Positions 56,058 through 58,805 of a stretch of DNA of 64,000 nucleotides are shown here, in pieces. The notes beneath the pieces were generated by a model. That model was not told where the DNA came from. It did no database searches and worked only from the letters and a program-made list of their open reading frames with translations. The DNA lies in contig OX597816.1 in the NCBI GenBank assembly GCA_951406725.2, positions 89,776,001-89,840,000 of the forward strand, written 5' to 3'. Within the stretch, counting starts at the first letter, position 1. Every line of letters starts with the position of its first letter. The DNA comes from Octopus vulgaris (taxonomy: Eukaryota). The position numbers and the translations under genes are program-made.

Positions 56058-56261
56058 AAATAGAAAGATGAATAATCTTGTAGTAGATTAATCAAAAGTT
56101 TAACCGATACCTTAGTAGCAAAAATCACAGCAGTAAAACAGCACGGTTGGAGGTACAACCATATGGTGTTGCAACCGTGCGTTGGTGCGGATAATTGAAA
56201 TTAGAACATTATTGGTGAATTGAAGAAATGGAGTTGAACGCAGATTGAACAGAAATCGTTT

Positions 56262-56356
56262 TATTTCATTCTACACGTGTTTCGAAAGGCACAAATTACC
56301 AAAATCCGATGGAATAATGGGACCATATTGTGTCTTTCTTCTTCAGGAAGAAAATA
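56262..56356 (-). ncRNA. Type I hammerhead ribozyme (left arm)
   Basis: Minus strand: TATTTTCTTC-CTGAAGA-A-GAAAGACACAA...TTGTGCCTTTC-GAAA-CACGTG-TA-GAATGAAATA. Confidence 0.78.
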
Positions 56357-57904
56357 GGAAATCCGTTGGAAAACAAAAAACAGAACAGAGGCGGAGCAAA
56401 AACAAATCGAACTATGCTCCTAAGAGCCCATGGCGAAACTGTTTATCAGTGTATGTTGAGAATCGGTGGCTGAAGAATTCAACGGGTCAGGCATCGGTCA
56501 ATCATGGGTGAGGGGGCGTAGATGTTCTTTGTGACCGAGAATAAAGTTCTGACTCATTTAAGAAATATTGGATGTTTTATAAGGGGCGAGAAAAAATCTA
56601 CTTAGAGACGTGTGTGTGTGTATACTGTTCTATATACGTGTGTATGTAGGGGTAGAAAACATTTTTTGTGTACGTGTGTGCGTTTGATCGTTCGGCTGTC
56701 AGTGGCTACTGCCGTGATGACCGTTGGGTGGCAGAAAAATATATATATATATCATGTTTTATGTGTGTGTGTCCATCTAAGCCTGCCTTGTCAGGAAACC
56801 AAGCCCCGTTTGTCTTACAGGAGTAATTTCTTGCAGTGGTTAATCGTAGATATCTTAAAGGCTATTTCAGAATTTGTTACCATAGTGGCTATGGGTGCCG
56901 GTATTATTTATAAACGCTATTTAAAAGCCAGATAAGTGTAACGCCGCCAATGTAGGGGCATCGAAAAGCCGACTGTAAAAGCCCGTTTACCATCCGGCCA
57001 TTCTGGCAAACAAAATATGGAAGAGTTCGGAGACACACAATAGTGCACTGCCTTCTGCCCCTATCAAATGGGAGGGCCACCGACAAAATTGACCATTCCA
57101 GCCTGTAGCTTAAGTTCGTATCCTTAAGCTACAGGCTGGAATGGTCAATTTTGTCGGTGGCCCTCCCATTTGATAGGGGCAGAAGGCAGTGCAACCTTTG
57201 TGTCTCCGAACTCTTCCATATTTTGTTTGCCAGAGGCCGGATGGTAAACGGGCTTTTACAGTCGGCTTTTCGATGCCCCCATTGGCGGCGTTACACTTAT
57301 CTGGCTTTTAAATAGCGTTTATAAATAATACCGGCACCCATAGCCCTTGGTAACAAATTCTGAAATAGCCTTTAAGATATCTACGATTAACCACTGCAAG
57401 GGGAATTACTCCTGTAAGACAAACGGGGCTTGGTTTTTTCACAGCGGGGGTTTCCTTGACAAGGCAGGCTTAGATGAGAACACACACACACATAAAACAT
57501 GATATATATATATTTTTTTTTTCTGCCACCCAACGGTCATCACGGCAGTAGCCACTGACAGCCGAACGATCAAACGCACACACGTACACAAAAAATGTTT
57601 TCTACCCCTACGCCAACACACACGTATATAGAACAGTATACACACACACACGTCTCTAAGTAGATTTTTTCTCGCCCCTTATAAAACATCCAATATTTCT
57701 TAAATAGTCAGAACTTTATTCTCGGTCACAAAGAACATCTACGCCCCTCACCCACATGATTGACCGATGCCTGACCCGTTGAATTCTTCAGCCACCGGTT
57801 CTCAACATACACTGATAAACAGTTTCGCCATGGGCTCTTAGGAGCATAGTTCGATTTGTTTTTGCTCCGCCTCTGTTCTGTTTTTGTTTTTCCAACGGAT
57901 TTCC

Positions 57905-57998
57905 TATTTTCTTCCTGAAGAGAAAGACACAATATGGTCCCATTATTCCATCGGATTTTGGTAATTTGTGCCTTTCGAAACACGTGTAGAATGAAATA
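57905..57998 (+). ncRNA. Type I hammerhead ribozyme (right arm), canonical core
   Basis: Stem I TATTTTCTTC/GAATGAAATA, core CTGAAGA (57915-21), stem II GAAAGACACAA/TTGTGCCTTTC, GAAA (57977-80), palindromic stem III CACGTG. Predicted cleavage is after GUA at 57988. Confidence 0.82.
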
Positions 57999-58054
57999 AA
58001 ACGATTTCTGTTCAATCTGCGTTCAGCTCCATTTCTTCAATTCACCAATAATGT

Positions 58055-58805
<751 letters not shown>

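What the first reader, a model, noticed from the sequence alone, without database searches (positions are those of the whole stretch)
56205..58055. 1.85 kb intronic palindrome carrying twin outward-facing hammerhead ribozymes
Seen: arms of ~910 and ~930 bp are joined by an 8-nt loop (TTCGTATC). Each arm reads outward as a PLE GIY-YIG C-terminus, a 3' UTR and a complete type I hammerhead (CUGAAGA / stem II / GAAA / palindromic CACGUG / GUA). The structure sits between (TA)n arrays in the 14.4 kb intron that splits the VWD domain. Established: Penelope-like elements carry minimal hammerheads with palindromic stem III that act as dimers, and they form inverted terminal arrangements. Coleoid cephalopods edit dsRNA heavily via ADARs. 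Inference: either strand yields an RNA with one ribozyme and its antisense. In the host pre-mRNA the left arm is transcribed first and would pair with the sense ribozyme at 57905-57998 in a ~0.9 kb duplex. That would make it a self-masking ribozyme, whose cleavage could be released by A-to-I editing or unwinding. It could also be a source of long dsRNA/siRNA, or a non-autonomous foldback retrozyme-like unit.
Basis: partly seen in the sequence, partly recalled or inferred. Interest (0 to 1): 0.82.

Follow-up and report, generated by a model that had tools for sequence, protein, structure and literature searches.

The report
Head-to-head Penelope retrotransposon insertion, twin ribozymes
The palindrome is an ordinary insertion of a young octopus retrotransposon that usually lands as two back-to-back partial copies, so the twin ribozyme motifs are likely a by-product, but the strict pairing of one long and one short end in every such insertion examined hints at how this poorly understood class of element copies itself.

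Summary
The palindrome and both hammerhead motifs are in the sequence, inside a 14.4-kb intron of a zonadhesin-like gene. It is not a special regulatory unit. Both arms are 5'-truncated copies of a young, Hydra-like Penelope-like element: 3.62-kb unit, 899-aa ORF, 1,491 exact matches to the ribozyme's 3' half. The 8-nt loop is simply the element's next bases, joined at a 3-nt microhomology. Head-to-head pairs are the family's usual insertion form: 28 outward-facing ribozyme pairs and no inward pair among the first 100 matches. Inverted copies with a hammerhead on each strand are already published for this clade. It carries about 20 private indels and substitutions, probably assembly errors. 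What is new is the family pattern. All 64 complete head-to-head insertions examined pair one end about 66 nt past the ribozyme cut with one about 220 nt past it, never like with like. This fits priming from both sides of one DNA break at two fixed sites on one RNA. The protein also lacks the linker zinc finger proposed to drive (TA)n targeting, yet it targets (TA)n.

The parts
46516..46766 (+). host exon, first half of a VWD domain (zonadhesin-like gene)
   Evidence: Pfam VWD 1-80, E 3e-15; 100% identical to P0122; GT donor at 46767
61164..61466 (+). host exon, second half of the VWD domain (3' boundary approximate)
   Evidence: Pfam VWD 80-155; AG acceptor at 61162-61163; follows the previous exon directly in P0122
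53593..56052 (.). left (TA)n target array
56053..57125 (-). left arm: 5'-truncated PLE copy from -876 to about +220 relative to the ribozyme cut (long end); 94.6% to a family copy, with private differences
56053..56204 (-). 154-nt tail present only in the left arm (+67 to +220); no private differences here
56262..56356 (-). left hammerhead motif, with a private extra A between the core and stem II
57112..57125 (.). junction: AAG, 8-nt loop (element sequence belonging to the left arm), CTT shared by both arms (3-nt microhomology); unique in the genome
57123..58055 (+). right arm: 5'-truncated PLE copy from -862 to about +66 (short end); 99% to its closest copies
57124..57315 (+). last 63 codons and stop of the RT-endonuclease ORF (CxxC..E..N..CxH)
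57905..57998 (+). type I hammerhead motif, family-typical sequence; predicted cut after 57988; stem III is the palindrome ACACGUGU
58056..58804 (.). right (TA)n target array

Best explanation
The palindrome is one insertion of a young, Hydra-like Penelope-like retrotransposon: two 5'-truncated copies joined head to head in a (TA)n array, likely made when both sides of a DNA break were each primed once on the same RNA. Shown: family identity, the two fixed 3' end points (about +66 and +220 after the ribozyme cut), their strict one-long-one-short pairing, the (TA)n flanks, and the 3-nt microhomology junction. Inferred: the endonuclease cuts both strands of the self-complementary (TA)n target; a dimeric RT primes one end at the +220 site and the other at the +66 site of a read-through RNA; both cDNAs stop, often at nearly the same point, as here (14 nt apart); the two cDNA ends anneal by microhomology and are filled in. 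Any copy longer than about 85 nt upstream of the cut carries a ribozyme, so twin outward ribozymes follow automatically. The ribozyme likely serves the element (it is predicted to work as a dimer in tandem transcripts), not the host gene. The left arm's extra differences are likely consensus errors.
For: Right arm matches dispersed copies at 99%, 1,509 candidates. Full unit 3,624 bp in a tandem array with an 899-aa ORF. Motifs match Hydra-clade PLEs. Genome-wide exact counts: short end into (TA)n 336, long end into (TA)n 762, read-through past the long end 26. 35 of 50 short ends have a head-to-head long end within 8 kb, chance about 0.1% each; no short-short pair among 50 ends and no long-long pair among 100 within 20 kb. 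64 of 64 distinct head-to-head insertions with both ends in view are long plus short. 30 of 30 copies picked by the ribozyme motif alone end at +58 to +71 (20) or +216 to +222 (10). 13 of 45 pairs have 5' ends within 25 nt against 2.0 after permutation, p 5e-5. In 10 of 11 other loci with at least 500 nt shared, the two arms are closer to each other than the median other copy. The arm reaching further 5' can be either type, which a simple fold-back from the long end cannot give. A Poseidon PLE cuts and extends both strands in vitro, starts RT at two internal sites and is predicted to be a dimer (PMC11167929).
Against: The order of events is inferred from genomic scars only. Arm similarity could also come from one active source copy or later gene conversion. 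PMC11167929 saw no difference in start site between top and bottom strands in vitro. Long ends outnumber exact short ends (762 vs 336), partly because short ends scatter over +50 to +71, and solo copies of both types exist. The protein has no Pfam or PDB hit, and no tree with reference PLEs was built. No read or contig was shown to span this junction. Four other tight palindromes were assembled with only 0-4 mismatches and 2-5 gaps between arms, so the window's damaged left arm is not a general effect.
Confidence: 0.82

Rival explanations
1. Same element, but made by fold-back: one cDNA primed at the long end folds on itself at AAG..CTT and copies itself back to the short end point.
For: Here the loop belongs to the long-end arm and the junction is a 3-bp, 8-nt-loop mini-hairpin. 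Both arms share one variant seen in no other locus in hand (-292). Near-symmetric pairs are in excess. Self-priming was proposed for head-to-head Penelope structures (PMC3846280 passages).
Against: Among 13 near-symmetric pairs, the short-end arm reaches further 5' in 6, the long-end arm in 5, and 2 are level. In many asymmetric pairs the short-end arm is hundreds of nt longer. Fold-back from the long end cannot give that, and fold-back from the short end has no template for the 154-nt tail. Solo short-end copies exist.
Confidence: 0.2
2. The hairpin is a host-used, self-masking ribozyme switch released by ADAR editing or unwinding, or a small-RNA source with a function for the host gene.
For: The host gene is on the + strand, so the antisense arm comes first and is predicted to cover the ribozyme. 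Coleoid editing targets repeats in introns and UTRs (PMC9068888 passages), so some editing here is plausible.
Against: The copy is very young (99% to its siblings) with no sign of selection. Roughly 400 outward pairs are expected genome-wide if 28 per 100 matches holds; 5 of 8 such pairs that I checked have two complete ribozymes. The hammerhead fold is 2.5 kcal/mol less stable than the free fold and stem III has 2 bp as a monomer. A single minimal PLE hammerhead showed no cleavage in vitro (PMC4209133), and another needed the element's protein (PMC11167929). A-to-I editing inside the core would more likely damage it (inference).
Confidence: 0.04
3. The whole palindrome is a sequencing or assembly fold-back artefact.
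For: The left arm has 23 of 28 difference contexts absent from all other loci in hand against 1 of 11 for the right arm; two tested left-arm variants occur once in the genome. The best public run holds 0.64 of sampled words, close to the 0.67 share of words common to the family. Inverted duplications lower nanopore accuracy (PMC7229812 abstract).
Against: A mirror artefact would duplicate the right arm and its flank. Instead the left arm has the family-typical 154-nt tail and its own flank, and the locus obeys the long-plus-short rule. The errors argue against the left arm's letters, not against its existence.
Confidence: 0.06
4. It is a non-autonomous retrozyme-like or MITE-like unit that spreads as a palindrome.
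For: It has ribozymes and no coding capacity; animal retrozymes are proposed to derive from PLE termini (bioRxiv 10.64898/2026.07.22.740005, part 1 read).
Against: The centre 28-mer occurs once in 2.8 Gb. Every other pair has its own junction. Retrozymes are tandem direct repeats, not inverted pairs.
Confidence: 0.02

Closest known systems
Hydra clade of Penelope-like elements (Craig et al. 2021, PMC8557442), e.g. Penelope-13_HM and Hydra-1_Obim
   Same: Single ORF with RT and C-terminal endonuclease; DKT motif; CxxC and CxH around the conserved E and N; canonical type I hammerhead near the 3' end; (TA)n insertion. Penelope-13_HM is listed with a 5'-truncated inverted copy and a hammerhead on each strand.
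   Different: Unit is 3.62 kb and ORF 899 aa (clade generally under 3 kb; homologs about 700 aa). The CxCX5C linker finger is replaced by a 150-aa Ser/Asn-rich stretch. RWK reads RWL. The hammerhead sequence differs from Hydra-1_Obim and has a much longer stem II arm.
Penelope/Poseidon insertions with an inverted pLTR and a tail (PMC3846280, PMC8557442, PMC11167929)
   Same: Head-to-head inverted 5'-truncated copy; a tail on only one end; two RT start points; microhomology junctions; partial tandems.
   Different: The tail is 154 nt rather than 30-40 nt. The strict one-long-one-short pairing is quantified here; I did not find it stated as a rule in the passages read.
Dimeric type I hammerheads of metazoan PLEs (Cervera and de la Pena 2014, PMC4209133)
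   Same: Conserved core, G10.1-C11.1 pair, short palindromic stem III that can form an 8-bp intermolecular helix.
   Different: Long stem I (9 of 10 pairs) and a 55-nt stem II arm; the two motifs here lie on opposite strands, so they cannot dimerise within one transcript.
L1 twin priming (recalled; only search listings seen)
   Same: Both target ends prime on one RNA and the cDNAs join by microhomology.
   Different: L1 gives an inverted 5' segment that does not overlap the 3' segment. Here both primings start at fixed sites near the 3' end and copy the same region, giving a palindrome.

Membership tests
EN+ Penelope-like element | single ORF with PLE-type RT and C-terminal GIY-YIG-like endonuclease | tested here: met
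   899-aa ORF with YRDD and VY..YVG, R, H, E, N; motifs match the published Hydra alignment by eye; no Pfam or PDB hit
EN+ Penelope-like element | tandem or partial-tandem copies (pseudo-LTRs) | tested here: met
   array with 3,624-3,625-bp period
EN+ Penelope-like element | inverted 5'-truncated copy and a tail at one end | tested here: met
   64 of 64 head-to-head pairs long plus short; tail is 154 nt, longer than the 30-40 nt described
EN+ Penelope-like element | hammerhead motif near the 3' end | tested here: met
   manual fit; Rfam negative
Hydra clade | DKT in place of DKG | tested here: met
   SDKT; DK[TS] in 119 of 120 listed homologs
Hydra clade | RWK motif | tested here: inconclusive
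   RWL here; RW[KR] in 107 of 120 listed homologs
Hydra clade | CxxC and CxH flanking the endonuclease E and N; no CCHH motif | tested here: met
   CNLC..E..N..CPH, no other Cys/His cluster in the endonuclease part
Hydra clade | CxCX5C linker zinc finger | tested here: not met
   0 of 48 linker readings (16 distinct, loci overlap) have CxC; 111 of 120 listed homologs have it
Hydra clade | (TA)n insertion preference | tested here: met
   30 of 30 copies picked by the ribozyme motif end in (TA)n
Hydra clade | length generally under 3 kb | tested here: not met
   3.62 kb unit
Hydra clade | groups with Hydra RTs in a phylogeny | not tested
   reference sequences were seen only in a paper supplement; filed as Hydra-like, not as a formal member
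Active type I hammerhead ribozyme | self-cleavage | not testable with these tools
   only contigs available
Non-LTR retrozyme | tandem direct monomers, each with a hammerhead, amplified as a unit | tested here: not met
   inverted arrangement; centre unique

The most novel reading that the evidence does not exclude
This family inserts by an obligate two-ended mechanism: an RT dimer on one RNA primes the two sides of a (TA)n break at two different fixed sites 154 nt apart, which would explain both the PLE tail and the head-to-head repeats in one step. It finds (TA)n without the linker zinc finger thought to do the targeting. A side effect would be several hundred intronic and intergenic hairpins in which the antisense arm is always transcribed before the ribozyme.
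Probability: 0.5. Interest if true: 0.6.

Novelty: new variant of a known kind. Interest (0 to 1): 0.35.

Why it matters
The locus itself is ordinary. The family is useful because how Penelope-like elements make their inverted repeats and tails is an open question (stated in PMC8557442). A very young family with intact ORFs, a wide 154-nt gap between start sites and a 64-of-64 pairing rule gives a sharp, testable prediction for an in vitro assay. It is also a natural counter-example to the idea that the linker zinc finger directs (TA)n targeting.

Tried and rejected
Rfam scans found no hammerhead; one search returned only microRNA-family noise from the (TA)n arrays and two chance hits. The repeat finder was swamped by (TA)n. 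Pfam and PDB gave nothing for the PLE protein or its homologs. Public runs were contigs only: no piece spanned the stretch, the junction was not among the rows shown, and RNA status was a guess, so expression, editing and cleavage could not be judged. The idea that the left arm comes from a second subfamily was rejected: best other match 95% and two variants unique. Three look-ups of earlier scan findings returned nothing. Paper searches for a published two-ended priming model for PLEs and for later work on the Hydra clade found none in this library; subscription journals are not covered, and I did not open the supplement of PMC11167929, whose Fig. S2 maps genomic ends. One search used loci chosen as simple long-plus-short pairs, so the pairing rule was re-tested without that choice. 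Ribozyme and linker counts include overlapping loci.

Full report
Observation. The inverted repeat is in the sequence: arms 56202-57114 and 57123-58058, 93.8% alike, around TTCGTATC. It lies between (TA)n arrays at 53593-56052 and 58056-58804 in intron 46767-61163 of a + strand gene. The two flanking exons give the two halves of a VWD domain and are adjacent in a protein named zonadhesin-like of Octopus vulgaris, 100% identical over the first exon. The hammerhead fits by hand: stem I 9 of 10 pairs, CUGAAGA, stem II 5+5 bp starting G-C, GAAA, ACACGUGU, cut after 57988. Rfam does not detect it. The ribozyme fold is -13.4 against -15.9 kcal/mol for the free fold, and two copies are predicted to pair through the 8-nt palindrome. 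This is the dimer-type architecture described for PLE hammerheads, where a single motif showed no cleavage in vitro (PMC4209133, passages).

What the arms are. The right arm matches dispersed copies at 99%, with 1,509 candidates. In all 29 other loci from that search the sequence upstream ends in GATACGAA, so the loop is the element's next 8 nt read on the minus strand, and CTT at 57123-57125 is shared by both arms. The full element is a 3,624-bp tandem unit with an 899-aa ORF; the ribozyme cut lies about 266 nt upstream of the next unit's ATG. A homolog search returned 354 proteins, mostly about 700 aa. The alignment shows SDKT, KDHK, GLYRDD, a VY..YVG endonuclease start and CNLC..E..N..CPH. 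These match the Hydra clade (PMC8557442 section 11, supplement parts 1-2 and passages). Two clade features fail: the CxCX5C linker finger, present in 111 of 120 listed homologs, is replaced by a 150-aa Ser/Asn-rich stretch with one Cys, and the unit exceeds 3 kb. I therefore call it Hydra-like and did not test placement on a tree.

The palindrome is the family's routine form. The left arm does not stop at 56205; it runs 154 nt further, to about 220 nt past the ribozyme cut, while the right arm stops at about +66. These are the family's two end points. Exact genome-wide counts are 336 short ends and 762 long ends abutting (TA)n, and 26 copies reading past the long end. All 30 copies picked only by the ribozyme motif end at +58 to +71 or +216 to +222. 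Of 50 listed short ends, 35 have a head-to-head long end within 8 kb, a lower bound because the patterns are exact; no like-with-like pair was seen among 50 short and 100 long ends. Of 64 distinct head-to-head insertions with both ends in view, 64 are long plus short. The ribozyme's 3' half has 1,491 exact matches; the first 100 hold 28 outward-facing pairs and no inward pair, and 5 of the 8 such pairs I checked carry two complete motifs. The centre of this palindrome is unique. The architecture is in print: an inverted 5'-truncated copy and a one-sided tail are typical of PLEs (PMC8557442 passages), head-to-head junction palindromes were described in rotifer Penelope (PMC3846280 passages), and Penelope-13_HM is listed with a hammerhead on each strand.

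How it likely forms. Three patterns bear on mechanism (on 54 loci chosen as simple pairs). First, 13 of the 45 pairs whose arms overlap have 5' ends within 25 nt, against 2.0 after permutation (p 5e-5); in the 19 end-selected loci alone it is 8 against 2.6 (p 0.001). Second, in 10 of 11 other loci sharing at least 500 nt the arms are closer to each other than the median other copy; one is level. Third, the arm reaching further 5' can be either type. Junctions overlap by 2 nt or more in 28 of 39 without an insert, against 16% for random joins (BLAST overlaps can overshoot, 6 against an exact 3 here), and 15 of 54 have small inserts. The simplest reading is that both sides of a break in the self-complementary (TA)n target are primed once each, at two fixed sites on one RNA, and the two cDNA ends anneal by microhomology. 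Two independent RNAs would give like-with-like pairs about half the time. A Poseidon PLE cuts and extends both strands in vitro, starts at two internal sites that bound the tail, and is predicted to be a dimer (PMC11167929, parts 1-2 of 4 and passages), though that study saw no strand difference in start site. These steps are inferred, at about 0.5-0.6. Fold-back could explain this locus alone but not the family. I found no paper stating the pairing rule in searches; the supplement of PMC11167929 was not opened and may bear on it.

The left arm's letters are doubtful. Against a family copy, 23 of its 28 difference contexts occur in no other locus in hand, against 1 of 11 for the right arm, and that one is shared by both arms. 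Two tested variants occur once in the genome. None lies in the unpaired 154-nt tail (P about 0.04). The arms differ by 10 mismatches and 16 gaps in 888 nt, while four other tight palindromes differ by 0-4 and 2-5. The best public run holds 0.64 of the sampled words, near the 0.67 that the family shares, but it may be another individual. Inverted duplications are known to degrade nanopore calls (PMC7229812, abstract); I do not know this assembly's platform. I put consensus error at about 0.7. The structure itself is probably real (about 0.9), since a mirror artefact would not add the tail.

The regulatory reading. If the host intron is transcribed, the antisense arm comes first and is predicted to pair over the ribozyme. 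That holds for every head-to-head copy on either strand. Editing of such repeats is expected in coleoids (PMC9068888 passages) but is generic. The copy is young, unconserved as far as can be seen, and its ribozyme likely needs a partner or the element's protein. The read test was uninformative because only contigs were available. I give the switch reading 0.04.

Verdict. The locus is an ordinary product of a known class of element. The family is a new variant: long tail, strict end pairing, no linker finger. Interest 0.35.

Noticed in passing
L042:1510-4206 (-) and other intact copies; array at G000:C1:119.51-119.53 Mb: The family ORF lacks the CxCX5C linker finger and has a 150-aa Ser/Asn-rich insert instead, yet insertion is strictly into (TA)n. 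Asn-rich linker inserts were also described in rotifer Penelope (PMC3846280).
   Followed up: partly
L052/L053 (G000:C1:119.51-119.53 Mb): Near-identical tandem units (99.9%), at least two with an open 899-aa ORF: a likely active source. A different PLE-like ORF fragment (ends ..LNRKLEWSNSAHHNI) lies next to the array on both sides.
   Followed up: partly
window 2832-38345: Large near-identical tandem duplications within the host gene (7215-15352 vs 24624-32731 at 98%; 15450-20414 vs 33323-38345 at 95%), matching repeated VWA and EGF exons in P0122; recent exon duplication or assembly redundancy.
   Followed up: no
window 50650-53592 (-): LINE fragment with a 642-aa open RT frame (Pfam RVT_1), ending at the left (TA)n array; four related copies at about 71% lie earlier in the window.
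   Followed up: partly
window 45092-46159: Tc1/mariner-like transposase remnant, judged from the translation only.
   Followed up: no
window 60391-60673 and 62563-62776: Two short, diverged inverted repeats (80% and 69%), possibly MITE-like.
   Followed up: no
L013, L049, L057, L058, L082, L083, L115: Junctions with short inserts that look copied from nearby element sequence, resembling polymerase theta-type end joining (recalled pattern).
   Followed up: no
window 47000-56050: Very long (TA)n arrays (about 3.7 kb and 2.5 kb) in the same intron.
   Followed up: no
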